The notes beneath the pieces were generated by a model, which was not told the origin of the DNA, did no database searches, and was given only the letters and a program-made list of their open reading frames with translations. Shown here one piece after another: positions 3,847 to 35,966 of a stretch of 64,000 nucleotides of DNA. This stretch comes from Octopus vulgaris (Eukaryota): the NCBI GenBank assembly GCA_951406725.2, contig OX597821.1, positions 23,312,001 through 23,376,000 on the forward strand, given 5' to 3'. The position numbers and the translations under genes were made by a program. The number at the start of each line of letters is the position of its first letter. Within the stretch, counting starts at the first letter, position 1.

Positions 3847-5621
3847 AAAATATTGATCCAAACCAAAACTACGATTGAGCAAGGTTTTTTTCTTGACAGA
3901 CGTCTCCTACAAATGGCAGCAAAGTGGGAAAATTCCCAGTTCTTTGAAACTGAAGAGTGGTAGGGCTATTTGTGATAAACTCTCCGCACAGAGGATGCTG
4001 TCAACAGATGGACCACCTGACCAGTGGAACGTATCCCTTCCACATGATGCAAAAATCCAGACGCCCCAAACTGATCCGAAAAATGTGGAAGAAAGGCATG
4101 ACGGTCACGGAAACATATATAACGGAATTGATGCATGCGTTCACGATTTCTATCAACCTTTCCAGGGATAGTTTTCTCTCAGTTGATTTTAGGTTTTGGC
4201 TGGTCATTCTTCACATAATTTCGTCTATCAAAGAGCCGCTACGCTCTTTGCGTTATGATTTCAAATTCCGCCGAAGTCGACTTGGTCGTTTATCCTTTCG
4301 GGGGTCAATAAAATAAGTACCAGTCGAGCAATGCGGTCGATGTAATCGACCTACATCCTCCACTAAAATTGCTGGCCTAGTACAAAATTTGAAACTAAAG
4401 ATGACGAGCTGGCAGAATTATTAGCATGCCGAAGAAAATGTTGAGCAACATTTCTTCAGGCATTACGTTCTGAATTCAAATATCGCCGAAATCGGCTTTG
4501 CCTTTCATCCCTTTCGGAATAAGTACAAGTTGAACACTGGGGTTGATGTAATCGACTTACCCTCTCACCACAAATTTCTGGCCTTGTGCTTATAATAGAA
4601 AGGACTGAGCTGGCAGAATCGTTATGGCACCGGACAAAAAACTACGCGGTTTTACATTCTGAATTCAAATTCTGCTGAGGTCGACTTTGACTTTCATTCT
4701 TTTGGGGCTGATAAATTAAGTATCAGTGACTTGTGTTGATGTAATCAACTAGTCCCTTCTCACCAAATTGCAGGCCTTGTGTTTTTAGTAGAAATGATTA
4801 TTCGTCCGTCTTTACGCTCTGAGTTCGAATTCCATCGAGGTCGACTTTGCTTTTCGTCCTTTTGGGGTCGATAAAATAAACATCATTTGGACACTGGGGT
4901 CGATGTAATTGACTTATCCCCTCCTCCAAAATTGCTGCCCTTGTGGCAAAATTTGCCACCATTATTATTATTGTTGCTATTGGGTGAGAGAGCAGCGCAT
5001 GCCATTGAAGTGATGCTGCGGTATACAAATATACGAAGCCTAATATATCCATCATGACTACCCGTCTGATAAAGCCACACCAAGCACATGCATCACAACA
5101 TATATGTGCGACATGGTGGACTCATATCAAGATAAACAGCAGATAACTTCAGGTCGAATATTTCATCCCGCCCAGAAGGTTTGTTTCAGGATGATGAACG
5201 AAACATCCATGTTTCCAGGTGTGAATTGTTCAAGCCCCAAAGAATTCCTCTCAACCAATGGTTATAATACGCCCCACCCACTATTCCTGCTCGTGATCAG
5301 AGATGCACATATCGTCAGCTACTGAGGGACATGCTCCACTGGTTACGGTCAAGTATAATTTTTTTCAATCGAACAAATCGATCTTCGTACTTATTTTAAA
5401 GTTTGGTACTTATTCTATCGGCTCTTTTACCTATATGGACGTAAACACACCAACACCGGTTATCAATTGGGGTGGGGGACAAACACAACCCAAAGACATG
5501 CACGGACACACACACACACACAACACATTTATGGCGAAAGATAATCATATAAAGGACAGTAAACTGTCTCCAGATAAAAAGAAACATAAAAAAAAATTAC
5601 CTTTAAATTTAAAAAAAAAAT

Positions 5622-5716
5622 TGCCCCAGGTGAGGATCGAACTCATGACCTTCAGATTACTCGGTTGTTAGAGCAGGATTATGAGACTGACGCGCTGCCT
5701 ACTGCGCTACCGAGGC
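5622..5716 (-). tRNA. tRNA-Met-CAT: Elongator tRNA-Met(CAT), copy 1, with 22-nt intron (5658-5679)
   Basis: Minus strand reads GCCTCGGTAGCGCAGTAGGCAGCGCGTCAGTCTCATA[ATCCTGCTCTAACAACCGAGTA]ATCTGAAGGTCATGAGTTCGATCCTCACCTGGGGCA. The 73-nt exons form a metazoan elongator Met cloverleaf. A T10 Pol III terminator follows at 5611-5620. One T-stem mismatch (A49-C65). Confidence 0.93.
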
Positions 5717-5734
5717 AGTTAACGACAAGCGTCT

Positions 5735-5750
5735 TTGTTTAGGAAGACAA
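5735..5750 (-). promoter_or_regulatory. Conserved 5' flanking element of the tRNA-Met genes (-34 to -19); also at 6082-6097, 7188-7203 and 7540-7555
   Basis: TTGTCTTCCTAAACAA (TTGTCTTCATTAACAA in copy 4) lies at identical spacing upstream of all four genes, while positions -1 to -18 diverge. The position matches the TFIIIB footprint. Confidence 0.6.
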
Positions 5751-5968
5751 CCACTATAGCTAAAAGTTGTCGATAATTCCTGCCCGCATATATTCATAAC
5801 ACACACACGCAAAAACTCTGTCTCTTCACTCCGTCCCCTCTACTCATTCTTACAATTTGCTATATGACTACGTAAAATCATAACTACTGATTAGTTGTAT
5901 ATAATATACACACAATATATTTAAATTTAAAAAAAAAAATTATTTTTAGAAAAAAGAAAAAAAAGTTG

Positions 5969-6063
5969 TGCCCCAGGTGAGGATCGAACTCACGACCTTC
6001 AGATTACTCGATTGCTACATTAGGATTATGAGACTGACGCGCTGCCTACTGCGCTACCGAGGC
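5969..6063 (-). tRNA. tRNA-Met-CAT: Elongator tRNA-Met(CAT), copy 2, with 22-nt intron (6005-6026)
   Basis: Same exons with intact T-stem; intron ATCCTAATGTAGCAATCGAGTA; oligo-T terminator a few nt downstream. Confidence 0.96.
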
Positions 6064-6137
6064 AACTAAACGTCGGAGCATTTGTTTAGGAAGACAATCG
6101 CTAAAGCTACTCAGCTATATTTTTAGCACAAGTCGTT

Positions 6138-6555
6138 GTTACTCTTTACTCTTTTACTCTTTTACTTGTTTCAGTCATGTGACTGTGGCCATGCTGGAGC
6201 ACCACCTTTAGTGGAGCACATCGACCCAGGACTTATTCTTTGTAGGCCTAGTACTTATTCGATCGGTCTCTTTTGCCGAACCGCTAAGTTACGGGGACGT
6301 AAACACACCACCATCGGTTGTCAAGCGATGTTGGGGCGGGGGGACAAGCACAAACGCACACACATATATATATATTATTTATACATATATACGACGGGCT
6401 TCTTTCAGTTTCCGTTTACTAAATCCACTCACAAGGCTTTGGTCGGCCCGAGGCTATAGCAGAAGACGCTTGCCCAAGGTGCCACGCAGTGGGACTGAAC
6501 CCGGAACCGTGTGGTTGGTAAGCAAGCTACTTACCACACAGCCTCTCCTACGCCT
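6138..6555 (-). mobile_element. SINE family A, full-length, inside the tRNA cluster
   Basis: Same consensus, reverse strand. Confidence 0.9.
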
Positions 6556-7074
6556 GTTGTTGCTGACAGCATTTATGCAATATGCAACACACACGCGCAT
6601 GCATACACACCCACACTCGCACACACACACTCACACACCCTGTCTCTTTCTCTCCCCCACTGTTATAATATATAGTCACACGCACATATAATCACAACTA
6701 CTGCTTATTTGTATACAATACCGATATTAGCTCTAAATAAAAGGCGGCAAGCTTGGCAGAATCGACACCGCGCCGGGCAAAATGCTTAGCGGCATTTCAT
6801 GAAATTCCGATTTGGGTCAACTTTGTCTTTCATCCTTTTGGGTACGATAAAATATGTACCAGCTGAATAGTAGGGTGGATGTAAATCGACTTGCTCTAAC
6901 ACACCAACACCGGTTATCAATTGGGGTGGGGGACAAACACAACCCAAAGACATGCACGGACACACACACACAACACATTTATGGCGGAAAGATAATCATA
7001 TAAAGGACAGTAAACTGTCCCCAGATAAAAAGAAACATAAAAAAAAAATTACCTTTAAATTTAAAAAAAAAGCT

Positions 7075-7169
7075 TGCCCCAGGTGAGGATCGAACTCACG
7101 ACCTTCAGATTACTCGGCTGTTAGATTAGGATTATGAGACTGACGCGCTGCCTACTGCGCTACCGAGGC
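7075..7169 (-). tRNA. tRNA-Met-CAT: Elongator tRNA-Met(CAT), copy 3, with 22-nt intron (7111-7132)
   Basis: Same exons; intron ATCCTAATCTAACAGCCGAGTA; oligo-T terminator downstream. Confidence 0.96.
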
Positions 7170-7426
7170 AGTTAGCGACAAGCGTCTTTGTTTAGGAAGA
7201 CAACCACTATAGCTAAAAGTTGTCGTCGATAATTCCTGCCCTCATATATTCATAACACACACACGCAAAAACTCTGTCTCTTCACTCCGTCCCCTCTACT
7301 CATTCTTACAATTTGCTATATGACTACGTAAAATCATAATTACTGATTAGTTGTATATAATATACACACAATATATTTAAATTAAAATAAAAAAATTTTT
7401 ATTTTTAGAAAAAAAAAAAAAAGTTG

Positions 7427-7521
7427 TGCCCCAGGTGAGGATCGAACTCACGACCTTCAGATTACTCGATTGCTAGATCAGGATTATGAGACTGACGCGC
7501 TGCCTACTGCGCTACCGAGGC
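7427..7521 (-). tRNA. tRNA-Met-CAT: Elongator tRNA-Met(CAT), copy 4, with 22-nt intron (7463-7484)
   Basis: Same exons; intron ATCCTGATCTAGCAATCGAGTA; oligo-T terminator downstream. Confidence 0.96.
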
Positions 7522-9398
7522 AGTTGGCAACAAAGTTACTTGTTAATGAAGACAATCACTGTAGCTACTAACTATATCTGTTCATTTGATATAGTCGACG
7601 TTGATACTGCTATTTATACACACACACACACACACACACGCACAGGCACACACACACACATACACACACGCACACACTGTGTCTCTCCTCCCTCCCTCTT
7701 TCTCTTCGCCGCTCACTCTTATTAGCTAATGTTACAATACCCACGCACTCATATAGGCATATCTACAGATTAATGCCCCGCGAATCGGTTGACTGATAAC
7801 TTCCTGAAAGCATGCATATTTTTTAATGAAATTTCGCTGTGATACGTCGTCGATGATGTAGATTACAATTATGTTGAGAAAAACAAGAGAAGAAGAAGAA
7901 GAAGAAGAAGAAGAAGAAGAAGAAGAAGAAGAAGAAGAAGAAGAAGAAGAAGAAGAAGCTGGCTGAGTTTCAGACGTTCTTCTTCCCCATCTATTGACAT
8001 GCATGTGTGTTTAGGAAGCTCTCTCAGCATCTACGAAGTTTTGATTTCGTCCCACTGCGCGGAACCTTGAGAAAGTGTCTTCTACCATAGCCTCGGGTCG
8101 ACCAAAGGCCTTGTGAGGGAATTCGATCGACGGAAACTGTATCGAAGTACATCACGCGCACGTGTGTATGTCTGTGCGTGCGTGTAAGCGTGCATGTATA
8201 TGTGTGTTTTGTCCCTAACACTCCCTTGATCACCGGTGTTGGTTTATTCACTTCCCTGTAAATTAAACAGTTCGGTTAAAGGCCGCAATCGAACGACAAA
8301 CAAATAAACAATAAAAGATATTTTTTTAAAATAAAAAATAAAAAAGCGAATACCTATTTCTTTATTACCCACAAGGGGCTAAACACAGAGGGGACAAACA
8401 AGGATAGACATAGGTATTAAGTCGATTACATCGACCTCAGTGCGTAACTGGTACTTAATTTATCGACCGCGAAAGGATGAAAGGCAAAGTCGGCCTAGGC
8501 GGAATTTGAACTCACAACGTAACGCAGACGAAATACCGCTAAGCATTTCGCCCGGCACTTACCACCGATTTCCGAAACCAAAGAGAAGATAACGGAGCGG
8601 AGGAGGCTACATTTCGCTCCTGTATTTATTATTTTTATCTATTTATTTATTTATTATATTTGGGGGTGGCGTTGGTTGTTAATTTGATAACAACTTTGGT
8701 AGATTTATCAGTAATTTCTTTGTGTAACACTCGCACGATTTTCACGAAAAAAAAAGACTCGGATTTTTTGCATGGAATCAAGTACCCTGACCTTCCAATA
8801 TTACTCTTTACTCTTTTACTCTTTTACTTGTTTCAGTCATTTGACTGCGGCCATGCTGGAGCACCGCCTTTAGTCGAGCAAATCGACCCCGGGACTTATT
8901 CTTTGTAAGCCCAGTACTTATTCTATTGGTCTCTTTTGCCGAACCGCTAAGTGACGGGGAAGTAAACACACCAGCATCGGTTGTCAAGCAATGCTAGGGG
9001 CACAAACACAGACACCAAATCCCTTTTTGGGGTCCGAAAAACGGGGTGGAGTAAGGTGGAAGCCTCGGAAATTTCACCCCCACCCCACACCCATTGAACT
9101 TTTCACCACCACGATTTTCACTAAGGAAAAATAATCGGATTTTTTGGTGGAATCAAGTACCCTGACCTCCTAATATGCTGCAAATCCCTTATTTTGGTTC
9201 GGAAAAAAGGGGGTGGGACGAAGGGTCCCCACACCCATCCCGGAACCATTGGAATTTATTTTTTTCATTGAATGAATTCTTGTGACCTCCTAATATACTA
9301 CAAAACCCTTTTATATATTATTAGTAATGGTAATGGTAAGACAACAAAAAATGAATGAAACCTCGATATTTATGTAAATAGAGGAATTTATTTGTAAT

Positions 9399-30810: not shown

Positions 30811-32047
30811 CGAGAGTGGGCTGAAAAGTTCATAGGCTGACTATGAAGTCGCGATGCTAGAGCTGTGAAATCTTACATACATTAATTTCAACCCTTCTTA
30901 TTAATAACTGTACTGTTTCTTTCCAGATAAACTAACATTTGACTGTTCAAAGGAGACTTCTAAAGTCACTAGCAGTAACTTCTTTTAAAAATGGACAATA
31001 TTTGGCATCGTAATGTTATCAAGTACCAGCAGAAAAGAAAAAAAGGCTTTATCCCCCAAGGACATTCATGGTGACATAGTTGCTACATTAGGGGATGAGA
31101 CTCCAGCTTTAACAACAGCGCAAAAGTGTGAACGGAAACTCATGAAGTTGACACAAGGTCTGGACGTCCTGCAACTGCCACCATCGAGGAAAACATGCAT
31201 CATGTTCACCATATGGTGATGGATGACAGGCAATTGACTATAAATCAAATAGCCAATGCTATTAGCATATCCTGTGTGAGAGTTGATAAACTTGACATGA
31301 CGAAGACTGTCATGTCTTCTGAAATCTGATTGTATCATGAGAAAATTTGGCATTGCTTGAGGCAGATGTAACTGCTTTCCTTGTCCTTGAGCATTTCCTT
31401 ATCCAAGATGAGTGTTGGTTTCATCACTTTGACCTAGAGACAAAGGGACAATCTATGCAATGGAAACACTCCTCCTCACCTGCTCCAAAGAAGACCAAAA
31501 TCATTTCATCTGCAGGGAAGGTGATTGCCTCTGTTTTTTGGATGCAAAAAGCATTGTGTTTATTCACTATCTTCAAAAAGGCCACACCGTCAATGGAGAG
31601 TACTATGCCAACATGCTGAGGCAGTTATGAAAGGCTACCAAGACCAAATGCCCAGAAAAACTGACGAAAAGTGTCTTGTTACATCAAAGCAATGCTCCAG
31701 CACAAGTCCTTGCTTTCAATGGCTGCTGTATGTGATTGTGGCTTTGGACTTCTGGATCACCCTCCTTGTTCTCCTGACTTTGCCCCATCTGACTCTCATC
31801 TGTTCCCCAACATGAAAAAGAACTTCACTGGGAACCTGTATCACAGCAGATATGACGTCATAACTGCTGTTGATGACTTTTATGACCAATAGGATGAAAG
31901 CTTCTTCACGAATAGGATCTAAGCTCTGCAGCACTGATGGAAGAAGTGTGTGGACCGCAAGGGGGTTTATGTCGAAAAATGAACCTCATTTGGTCACATT
32001 ACATGATAGTATCCATATCAGCCTATGTAATTTTCAACCGACCCTTG
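30811..32047 (+). mobile_element. mariner (DD34D) DNA transposon, decayed
   Basis: Imperfect TIRs CGAGAGTGGGCTGAAAA / TTTTCAACCGACCCTTG with TA at the left end. Transposase motifs QDECWFHHFD..TK.QSMQW, SAGKVIASVFW and HPPCSPDFAPSDSHLF. Confidence 0.92.
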
Positions 32048-32161
32048 TTTGTACAATACATACATACATACATACATACATACATACATACATACATACA
32101 TACATACATACATACATACATACATACATACATACATACATACATACATACATACATACAT

Positions 32162-34100
32162 AGCCAAACCACTCTTGCTAAAACTTACCGCTCAATAACG
32201 TGCCAGAACATCATGTACAAATTATACCTTGCGTGCCTCAATCTGTTCTTGCAGGGTCATTGTGCCACCAACAGCATTATAACACCTGAGCAAGCTGGAG
32301 AAAAGAAAGAGGTGTGGGACTGTATACAGCAGCTACTAATTAACAAAATGATCGAGGAAAAAAGCTGTAAAAAATCGCAGGAACTAACCGTAGTGTGGCT
32401 GGATTACCAGAAGACCTTTGATAATGTACCACATTAGTGGATTATCAAGGCTTTACAGTTAACCAAAGTTCCACAACCAGAAGAGAGTGCTAACGAACGC
32501 CTGACTAATATTTGGTCTTTGGGAATGGTAAAGAGCAAATTGAATTGGATAGCATTCACTTTCAAAAAGGTGTCTTTCAAGGTGACAGCCTATCTGTGTT
32601 GTTCTTCGTCCTCTCGTTAAACTCACTATCAAACCAGCTAACAAAACATTGTAGGGATAGAAATGGATCCAGATGTATCTCCCATCTTTTCTTAGTCGAC
32701 GACTTGAAACTGTACAGACCAAATATCAACAACATAAAAAAAGAATTGGACCTTATAACCAAGTTTTTATAGACATTTCGATGAAATTTGCTGAGTCCAA
32801 ATGTGCATTTTTAACCATAACGCGTAAAAAGGTTGCGCTCTCTTCTGAAGACCTAAAAATGAACAGTTTGACAATACAGCCTCTACGATCAGATAGCAAT
32901 TATAGGTATCTTAGACAAGATGAGAATGTCAGATATGATGGACCCATAAATAAGGAGAGGACCAGGAATGGAGAGTAAAAAGAATATGACATCAGAACTC
33001 TCATCTTACAACAAGCATGTTGCCCATGACACATTTGCAGTGCATATCCTCACACCTACTTTTGGCCTTCTAGATTAGTCACTATAAGAACTATAAGAAC
33101 ATTTTAGCATCAATGGAAATATAGACAGACTATAGTTCCCACGCGAGGATGGTGATCGTGGTTTCAAACCTGGATTGATGTCATATGAAGCACCTCTTGT
33201 GACACTGAAACAACATCTGCAGCAGAGGAAAGAGACCAGTAACTATGTCACCCAAGTTTGTGACCATGAAAATCAACAACATAAGTAGGATAGCTAATGA
33301 ACTTGAGAAGTATGAAATAAGAGCTGATACAGAAGAACAAAAGAAATGAGCCGGTTCAGTGAAAAAAACTCAAAACATGGAAAGGATTGATCGTATCAAA
33401 AGCTTGGCATGGAGTAGCGACAAATTTATAACATACCACTTCAAAAGCTAACTCCATGCAGTCCAAGAACCAAAGATCACCCTGTGTCAACAGCACAAAA
33501 TAAAGAAAATTTTGACAAACAACAAATGTAGGCTGTACAAGGTCAAGACGTCAACTGCACTAAGGCCAACTTCGAGAGAATGTCTTCTAGACATTATCTT
33601 CAAATGAGGCATTATGCGGTGGACCGAGCAGTCTGGAATAGGATAGCAAAAAAACAAAATACTTACAGACGAATTTGACCATATTGAGACTGATGGGTCA
33701 ACAGAATATTGATGGACCTTGAAAATGAAAACAACCGCCAAGTTAAAACACAACCGGCCAGATATTGTTGTGTGGGACAACAATGAAAAGATATGTTCTT
33801 TTGTGGCTAGAAAAGTACAAAAGAAAAAGGACATCTGTGAACCATTGATACTGAGTTTGCAAATCCGATATCCAAGGTGCACTTTTCGCACTATACCTTT
33901 TAGCAGTGGAGCAACAAGATACATTCCGACACATTTGGAACGAAGTATGGCTTAACTTGGGCTCTTGAGGAGAGAACGGAGATCCTTAATTCATACGCTA
34001 TAAACGATTGCGATATATGGGACTGTAAAGATCTTCAAAACCTACATAAAGGTTTAAAAGATGATGAACAAGACAAGATGCTTTCATTCACAACCTTACT
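32162..34100 (+). mobile_element. R4/Dong-clade non-LTR retrotransposon, 5'-truncated and decayed (RT plus restriction-like endonuclease)
   Basis: QLLINK, WLDYQKTFDNVPH, GVFQGDSLSVLFF, SHLFLVDDLKLY, YRYL, HNRPDIVVWD; many stops and frameshifts. Confidence 0.88.
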
Positions 34101-35145: not shown

Positions 35146-35421
35146 ATCAGATGTTGCTACAATTCGCTGGTCACAATGCGTGCATATTGTTTTAGCCTTC
35201 GAATGACGCCACCCCGCTGGCTAAGCGAGCAGGCCAACAGAAGAAAGAGTGAGAGAAAGTGTGGTGAAAGAGTACAGCAGGGATCGCCACCCCCTGCCGG
35301 AGCCTCGTGGAGCGTTTTAGGTGTTTTCGCTCAATAAAAACACACAACGCCCGGTCTGGGAATCGAAACCGCGATCCTACGACTGCGAGTCCGCTGCCCT
35401 AACCACTGGACCATTGCGCCT

Positions 35422-35476
<55 letters not shown>

Positions 35477-35544
35477 CATACATACATACATACATACATA
35501 CATACATACATACATACATACATACATACATACATACATTTTAT

Positions 35545-35966
35545 TTGATCAAATTAATCCTATGGTTGCGGAACTGTTTCTGGAGGGAAACACAATCTTT
35601 CAGGATGATAGTGCACCAATTCACACAGCTAAAGTTGTTACTGAATGGCACGAGAAACATTCTAGTAAAGTTGAACATCTTATCTGGTTACCACAGACCC
35701 CAGATCTCAATATTATTGAACATTTATGGTGCATTTTAGAAAAAACAAGTAAGGAGTCGATATTTTCCACCATCATCACTACAAGAACTGGAAACTGTTC
35801 CGGCTGAAGAAGGGACAAAAATTCCTTTGGAAACAATTTAAACTTTGTACGAATCCATACCTCGTAGGATTCAAGCTGTAATTACTGCCAAAGGCAGTCC
35901 TACTCCATATTAAAATAAATTTGTTTGAAATTTTAAGGTGTTTCCATTATTTTGTCCAACTCCTGT
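35545..35966 (+). mobile_element. Tc1-like (DD34E) transposon, 3' fragment
   Basis: FQDDSAPIHTAK...WLPQTPDLNIIEHLW; right TIR ...TTTTGTCCAACTCCTG followed by TA. Confidence 0.88.

What the first reader, a model, noticed from the sequence alone, without database searches (positions are those of the whole stretch)
5622..7521. Cluster of four intron-containing elongator tRNA-Met(CAT) genes in an animal genome
Seen: four 95-nt genes, each with metazoan-type elongator Met exons and a 22-nt insert exactly between nt 37 and 38. All introns end in GAGTA, so the antepenultimate G can pair with C32 (the anticodon-intron pair) and GAG can pair with C32-U33-C34, leaving the 3-nt bulge that TSEN recognises. 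All four have oligo-T terminators. Established: well-studied animals carry introns mainly in Tyr-GTA, Ile-TAT, Leu-CAA and (vertebrates) Arg-TCT, whereas intron-containing elongator Met is the land-plant pattern. Inference: a lineage-specific intron gain that makes Met elongation depend on tRNA splicing and would yield 22-nt excised or circular intron RNAs.
Basis: partly seen in the sequence, partly recalled or inferred. Interest (0 to 1): 0.75.

Follow-up and report, generated by a model that had tools for sequence, protein, structure and literature searches.

The report
Intron in animal methionine tRNA genes
Every intact elongator methionine tRNA gene found in this animal genome carries a short intron, a trait described for plants and fungi, and the same intron type occurs in other animal-type DNA; its first three letters copy the spliced junction, which would let modifying enzymes act before the intron is removed.

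Summary
Observation confirmed: four minus-strand elongator tRNA-Met(CAT) genes, 37+22+36 nt, each with an oligo-T terminator. The intron is genome-wide. All 37 intact copies recovered have a 15-22 nt intron; no intact intronless copy was found. Initiator Met genes examined are intronless. In 30 of 30 distinct introns, GAG (-5..-3, the anticodon-intron helix) and ATC (+1..+3) are invariant while the interior drifts. It is not specific to this lineage: a metagenome scan gave 100 animal-type intron-bearing genes with 9 recurring exon types, and 69 of 77 distinct introns start with ATC. Their taxa were not determined. Splicing is likely canonical (TSEN/RtcB) but untested at RNA level; the only spliced junction seen is one decayed intronless copy. 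ATC equals A38-U39-C40 and ends where the conserved SNORD97 guide target ends, so it may keep that site usable in the unspliced precursor. No such guide was found near LARP4. My paper searches found no report of Met introns in animals. Verdict: new variant of a known kind, interest 0.5.

The parts
5622..5716 (-). Elongator tRNA-Met(CAT) gene 1 (exon 1 5680-5716, intron 5658-5679, exon 2 5622-5657); T-stem mismatch at position 49, competing intron hairpin; likely impaired
5658..5679 (-). 22-nt intron at 37/38, ATC...GAGTA
5611..5620 (-). Oligo-T (10) Pol III terminator of gene 1
5969..6063 (-). Elongator tRNA-Met(CAT) gene 2 (exon 1 6027-6063, intron 6005-6026, exon 2 5969-6004)
6005..6026 (-). 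22-nt intron at 37/38, ATC...GAGTA
5957..5964 (-). Oligo-T (8) terminator of gene 2
7075..7169 (-). Elongator tRNA-Met(CAT) gene 3, duplicate of gene 1 (intron 7111-7132, exon 2 7075-7110)
7111..7132 (-). 22-nt intron at 37/38, ATC...GAGTA
7063..7071 (-). Oligo-T (9) terminator of gene 3
7427..7521 (-). Elongator tRNA-Met(CAT) gene 4, duplicate of gene 2 (intron 7463-7484, exon 2 7427-7462)
7463..7484 (-). 22-nt intron at 37/38, ATC...GAGTA
7409..7422 (-). Oligo-T (14) terminator of gene 4
5437..7578 (.). Local duplication: 5437-6120 repeated at 6891-7578 (two genes plus flanks), separated by other repeat-type DNA

Best explanation
These are four of at least 37 intact elongator tRNA-Met(CAT) genes in this genome, all carrying a 37/38 intron that is likely cut out by TSEN and sealed by RtcB, and the intron's invariant first three letters likely mimic the spliced junction so that the anticodon loop can be modified before splicing. 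Shown: gene anatomy, genome-wide presence, no intact intronless elongator gene found, invariant GAG and ATC, and the same intron type in other animal-type DNA. Inferred: Pol III makes a leader-exon-intron-exon-trailer precursor; GAG pairs with C32-U33-C34 (G-3 with C32 is the anticodon-intron pair); TSEN cuts at 37/+1 and -1/38; RtcB joins the exons; all elongator Met comes by this route. More speculative (about 0.35): AUC at +1..+3 stands in for A38-U39-C40, so a SNORD97-type box C/D guide could form its 10-bp duplex (U31 to C40) on the unspliced precursor and 2'-O-methylate C34. The intron is likely old, shared by a broad group of invertebrates.
For: Exact spliced junction: 0 hits in 2.8 Gb. 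All 49 exon-1-core and 49 exon-2-core hits lay in fetched loci; 45 distinct full copies, all with an insert, 37 intact; the rest are fragments, SINE heads, or one decayed intronless copy. A generic intronless-CAT pattern gave 35 hits: 34 not elongator-Met-like and that decayed copy; ARAGORN found 0 tRNAs in the 30 loci fetched. The intronless copy as query aligned full length only to itself, apart from two gapped matches of 76-77% to short-intron copies, in 40 scored of 60 candidates. Exons near-invariant; intron interiors average 0.35 alignment score per base, yet GAG and ATC are 30 of 30. 37 of 37 have T4 within 14 nt. Dispersed copies stop at the oligo-T, mostly run into a SINE head and share no parent flank, as expected of retrocopied precursors; one on another chromosome matches the window's intron and trailer. 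Metagenomes: A+1 and T+2 in 77 of 77 distinct introns, C+3 in 69 of 77, although the pattern fixed only GAG and exon 2. Guide geometry: fifth-nucleotide rule and SCARNA97 probe sequence (PMC6601510); the cross-species invariant target run ends at C40 as I read the alignment (its supplement Fig. S4); C/D RNPs work best with 9-10 bp (PMC7229835).
Against: No RNA evidence of the spliced product was obtained. TSEN and RtcB genes were not looked for. No SNORD97-type guide was found in 200 kb around the LARP4-like gene, nor among 1.10 Mb of fetched DNA (1 hit, no C box); a genome-wide guide search was not done. Plant elongator Met introns start with GCT, not ATC (PMC11700998), although plants have a candidate guide, so the mimicry is not universal. 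8 of 77 metagenome introns lack C+3. With the anticodon stem forced, predicted P(C32:G-3) averages only 0.65 and is below 0.35 in 7 of 37 genes. The introns are related by descent, so counts overstate independent support. The assembly may be incomplete, and a very divergent intronless isodecoder could escape the patterns (226 of 326 hits of the looser pattern were not listed).
Confidence: 0.75

Rival explanations
1. The 5' ATC is kept for protein enzymes or folding, not for a guide RNA: A+1 supplies the U36-A37-A38 context for t6A37, U+2 stands in for U39, and C+3 can pair with G30, giving a mature-like anticodon loop in the precursor.
For: A+1 and T+2 are stricter (77 of 77) than C+3 (69 of 77). 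No guide found. Intron-dependent or intron-timed modifications by protein enzymes are known for Tyr, Ile, Leu and Phe tRNAs. The t6A sequence requirement is recalled, not from a call.
Against: Ile-TAT genes in the metagenome loci (also U36-A37) do not start their introns with ATC (2 seen). The conserved run stops at the 10-bp guide core rather than at an obvious enzyme motif.
Confidence: 0.3
2. The intron arose as a tandem duplication of nt 38-55 of exon 2, which starts with ATC and has GAG two nt before its end, so it was spliceable at birth; ATC is a relic.
For: The first 18 nt of exon 2 have the same two end motifs. One intron interior resembles the exon-2 interior at p=0.011.
Against: Interior test is negative overall: mean z -0.06, 1 of 30 at p<0.05, no better than control windows elsewhere in the tRNA. 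A relic would not stay invariant while neighbouring positions drift. It can be an origin story but not the reason for conservation.
Confidence: 0.2
3. The intron is not a gain but the ancestral eukaryotic elongator Met intron, kept in these animals and lost in the well-studied ones.
For: Plants and fungi have tM(CAU) introns; plant ones have GAGT near the 3' end. The intron is widespread in animal-type metagenome DNA.
Against: GAG is forced by pairing with C32-U33-C34, so it is no sign of homology. The 5' motif differs (GCT in plants and in one non-animal-type metagenome gene, L255; ATC here). Trichoplax Met genes carry no intron mark in the table I saw (PMC2655684), so retention needs several losses.
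Confidence: 0.3
4. The genes are pseudogenes or SINE-like repeats, and an unseen intronless gene makes the working tRNA.
For: The genome is rich in tRNA-derived SINE heads and decayed copies; gene 1 has a stem mismatch.
Against: Exons are near-invariant over 37 genes while introns diverge; no intact intronless gene found; same architecture in other organisms.
Confidence: 0.04

Closest known systems
Canonical eukaryotic 37/38 tRNA introns (TSEN/RtcB; Tyr-GTA, Ile-TAT, Leu-CAA, Arg-TCT in humans)
   Same: Position, length, anticodon-intron pair, all-or-none presence in the gene family (PMC10275265; PMC4090602).
   Different: Isotype is elongator Met. The review states tRNA introns lack conserved terminal motifs, whereas these have an invariant 5' trinucleotide equal to the start of exon 2.
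Plant (and fungal) intron-containing elongator tRNA-Met
   Same: Same isotype; conserved 5' trinucleotide and GAG near the 3' end (PMC11700998). Initiator Met intronless here.
   Different: Animal-type exons; 5' motif ATC rather than GCT; introns 15-22 nt here against means of 11-14 nt in plants.
SNORD97/SCARNA97-guided Cm34 of human elongator tRNA-Met
   Same: Precursor nt 30 to +3 are identical to mature nt 30-40, the guide's target, in 4 of 4 window genes (PMC6601510).
   Different: The paper does not discuss an intron-bearing substrate in the parts I read; no guide was found here.
Archaeal box C/D-guided Cm34 on elongator pre-tRNA-Met (Haloferax volcanii)
   Same: Guide RNA acting on the wobble C of a precursor (title only, in the reference list of PMC6601515).
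   Different: Archaeal BHB intron and guide; paper itself not read.

Membership tests
Elongator tRNA-Met(CAT) gene | tRNA cloverleaf with CAT anticodon | tested here: met
   Rfam 4 of 4 over cut-off; ARAGORN Met(cat) 4 of 4
Elongator tRNA-Met(CAT) gene | G1-C72 and T54-T55-C56, not the initiator's A1-U72, A54 and three G-C pairs (features recalled) | tested here: met
   the separate initiator family of this genome has the other set; exons match the vertebrate, Ciona and fly elongator rows in PMC6601510 Fig. S4 closely
Elongator tRNA-Met(CAT) gene | Pol III terminator | tested here: met
   4 of 4 in window, 37 of 37 genome-wide
Elongator tRNA-Met(CAT) gene | Transcribed and charged with Met | tested here: inconclusive
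   Only indirect: apparent retrocopies of precursors; no reads examined
Canonical eukaryotic tRNA intron | Located between nt 37 and 38 | tested here: met
   37-nt exon 1, 36-nt exon 2; register fixed by GAG at -5..-3 in 30 of 30
Canonical eukaryotic tRNA intron | Antepenultimate purine able to pair with pyrimidine 32, within a bulge-helix-loop | tested here: met
   G-3 in 30 of 30; predicted pairing probability mean 0.65, low in gene 1
Canonical eukaryotic tRNA intron | Excised by TSEN and exons joined | not testable with these tools
   No enzyme assay; one decayed precisely intronless copy (L034) fits splicing or a microhomology deletion
tricRNA (circular tRNA intron) | Circular junction reads | not tested
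   Very small introns are under-detected in cDNA libraries (PMC4536317)
SNORD97-type guide target | Target nt 31-40 intact in the substrate | tested here: met
   4 of 4 window precursors; ATC in 30 of 30 introns
SNORD97-type guide target | A box C/D RNA with the matching antisense element exists in the genome | tested here: inconclusive
   None in 200 kb around the LARP4-like gene or in 1.10 Mb fetched; the other 99.9% of the genome not scanned
SNORD97-type guide target | C34 is 2'-O-methylated, on the precursor | not testable with these tools
   Needs RiboMeth-seq or primer extension

The most novel reading that the evidence does not exclude
A broad group of invertebrates has an overlooked elongator tRNA-Met intron whose 5' end is under selection to impersonate the spliced exon junction, so that a SNORD97-type snoRNA methylates the wobble cytidine on the unspliced precursor. 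That would be a eukaryotic tRNA intron shaped by a guide RNA, and a natural test of when in tRNA maturation guided Cm34 is made.
Probability: 0.35. Interest if true: 0.72.

Novelty: new variant of a known kind. Interest (0 to 1): 0.5.

Why it matters
It would correct the picture, drawn from GtRNAdb-weighted surveys, that Met introns are a plant and fungal trait, and add an isotype to the short list of spliced animal tRNAs. Why tRNA introns persist is an open question; the leading idea is coupling to modification (PMC12168002). An intron with an invariant three-letter copy of the spliced junction gives a cheap test of that idea. Practically, annotation tools run without intron search miss or mislabel these genes (2 of 4 found, as unknown type).

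Tried and rejected
pattern mis-spaced by one base, so it is no test for intronless genes; redone. (380 and 326 hits, 100 listed each) were swamped by tRNA-derived SINE heads; ARAGORN found 0 tRNAs in the 30 loci of each. RF00005 over the genome scored only 63 candidates and returned no Met gene among the 30 loci read, so it says nothing on Met. Duplication origin: interior test negative. Guide RNA near LARP4: none. Sequencing runs: 24 listed, RNA-type rows held at most 0.13 of the words; none was laid, so they are no evidence. Taxon of metagenome loci: Pfam on 120 of 355 flanking frames gave 3 hits, none placing an animal group; Rfam on 20 of 119 loci gave only tRNAs and one 5S gene. Earlier findings by sequence: none. 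Window frames: 4 of 41 had weak or transposon-type Pfam hits, no host gene. Papers with nothing relevant in the passages seen: PMC8450103, PMC10886601, PMC12257675, PMC2770079, PMC11014333.

Full report
1. Observation. The window holds four minus-strand tRNA genes at the stated places (Rfam, 4 hits). Each is 37 nt + 22 nt + 36 nt, the intron starts ATC and ends GAGTA, and an oligo-T run follows. ARAGORN with intron search names all four Met(cat). They are a two-gene unit duplicated once. Gene 1 has a T-stem mismatch and an intron hairpin that competes with the splice helix.

2. Genome. The window lies in a 2.8-Gb assembly of 227 contigs; that size with about 30 large contigs fits an octopus, which is recall and was not tested. 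The exact spliced junction has 0 matches. Exon-1 and exon-2 core patterns gave 49 matches each, all inside loci then held. A script found 48 full copies; 3 were duplicates from overlapping loci, leaving 45, all with an insert of 12-22 nt. I set aside 8 with more than two exon changes or more than one in exon 1, leaving 37 intact with 15-22 nt introns. The remaining matches are fragments, SINE heads, or one decayed intronless copy. A generic intronless-CAT pattern gave 35 matches, all listed; only that decayed copy is elongator-like by eye, and ARAGORN found no tRNA in the 30 loci fetched. Initiator Met genes in 30 loci, from 116 matches, are intronless. So elongator Met likely comes only from intron-containing genes; an incomplete assembly or a very divergent isodecoder is the caveat.

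3. Intron anatomy. Among 30 distinct introns, +1..+3 (ATC) and -5..-3 (GAG) are invariant; the commonest letter at the other positions tabulated reaches 0.37-0.73. GAG is complementary to C32-U33-C34 and puts G at the antepenultimate place, the known anticodon-intron pair (PMC10275265, passages). With the stem forced, that pair has mean predicted probability 0.65 over 37 genes. ATC has no such explanation; it equals the first three nt of exon 2.

4. Transcription and splicing. No reads were examined, so both remain open at RNA level. Indirectly, 19 of 21 dispersed copies parsed end at the terminator and run into a SINE-like head, and none shares flanks with its closest parent; one matches the window's intron and trailer, two match other genes exactly. 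I read these as retrocopied precursors. The one intronless copy fits a spliced intermediate or a deletion between the two ATCs.

5. Other organisms. One metagenome scan for GAG-N-N plus an animal-type exon 2 gave 119 stretches, 109 distinct contexts, 102 with exon 1 and an intron. I dropped two with non-animal-type exons (L254, L255), leaving 100 genes and 77 distinct introns of 13-52 nt: A+1 77 of 77, T+2 77 of 77, C+3 69 of 77 (7 G, 1 A). The pattern did not fix these letters. Nine exon types occur in two or more loci. The records name no organism and I could not place them by flanking genes. The scan could only find intron-bearing genes, so there is no denominator. The conclusion is limited but firm: the intron is not peculiar to this genome.

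6. Mechanism. Splicing by TSEN and RtcB follows from established pathways and is inferred. For ATC, the best lead is the SNORD97/SCARNA97 guide that methylates C34 of elongator tRNA-Met in human cells and has candidate homologues in insects, plants and a tunicate (PMC6601510, parts 1-3 of 4 of the main text; supplement passages). From the fifth-nucleotide rule and the printed probe, guide positions 2-11 before box D face U31-C40 (my derivation); the invariant run in its alignment ends at C40; C/D RNPs modify 9-10 bp substrates efficiently (PMC7229835, passages). The precursor reads the same as the mature tRNA from nt 30 to +3 and differs at +4 in 4 of 4 window genes. The G+3 group would still give 9 bp. 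Against: the fish host gene LARP4 has a likely orthologue here (La domain hit; the LARP4 label is my recall of its sequence), and 200 kb around it hold no guide; plants use GCT (PMC11700998, passages). Protein-enzyme mimicry is a near-equal rival. A duplication origin has the right end motifs but no interior signal.

7. What is known. The intron is a canonical 37/38 type. A GtRNAdb survey of 576 genomes describes tM(CAU) introns as conserved in plants and fungi (PMC12168002, passages and section 12); its figure values and supplement Fig. S7 were not seen and could show some animal cases. Human introns are listed for Tyr, Ile, Arg and Leu; Trichoplax Met genes carry no intron mark (PMC2655684, passages). 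Lineage-level gains and losses of tRNA introns are known in yeasts (PMC4090602, passages). PMC4536317 (passages) and PMC6601515 (part 1 of 2) gave background. Searches for a report of Met introns in molluscs, annelids or other invertebrates found none in the listings; the library lacks most subscription papers, and GtRNAdb itself could not be consulted.

8. Verdict. Real, genome-wide and shared with other animal-type DNA; ordinary in splicing mechanism, unreported in isotype as far as I could search, and carrying an invariant 5' motif that needs explaining. New variant of a known kind; interest 0.5; the guide-mimicry reading 0.35 likely, 0.72 if true.

Noticed in passing
L005, L006, L010, L017, L019-L022, L024, L027, L028, L030, L032, L034-L036, L038, L040, L042 (own genome): Dispersed tRNA-Met copies, several 5'-truncated, keep intron and trailer, end at the terminator T-run and run into what look like SINE heads, with no parent flank: apparent pre-tRNA/SINE retro-chimeras. 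Similar junctions follow some Ala, Arg and Lys copies. SINE insertion at T-rich sites is an alternative; SINE labels are by eye.
   Followed up: partly
L034:283-356 (G000:C13:3138757-3138830): The only intronless elongator-type copy: precise junction, decayed, with trailer and SINE head. Could be a copy of a spliced but untrimmed precursor, or an ATC-microhomology deletion.
   Followed up: partly
L316, L234, L239, L242, L243, L269, L313 (metagenome contigs): One organism group has a dense unit of about 5.4 kb with nearly one tRNA of each type plus a 5S rRNA gene, intron-containing Gly-GCC genes, and Met introns starting ATG. A Gly-GCC intron in an animal-type genome is itself unusual to my recall.
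   Followed up: no
L047-L051, L082, L083, L149 (own genome): Arg-TCT genes seen are intronless by ARAGORN; on C17 they alternate with Met genes in an array with a period of about 11 kb.
   Followed up: no
L153-L156 (G000:C6, near 111.74 Mb): An initiator-Met body with a TAT anticodon inside an initiator Met cluster.
   Followed up: no
L255 (metagenome contig): Non-animal-type Met gene beside an amino-acid permease and a terpene-synthase-like frame; its 35-nt intron starts GCT as in plants.
   Followed up: no
window 31916-32434 and 35403-35804: Reverse-transcriptase-like and DDE-transposase-like fragments; no host gene found around the tRNA cluster.
   Followed up: no
L042:2094-2188 (G000:C8:23304095-23304188): A further Met gene about 13.5 kb from the window cluster has the C17-type intron and trailer (31 of 31), not the window type.
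   Followed up: partly
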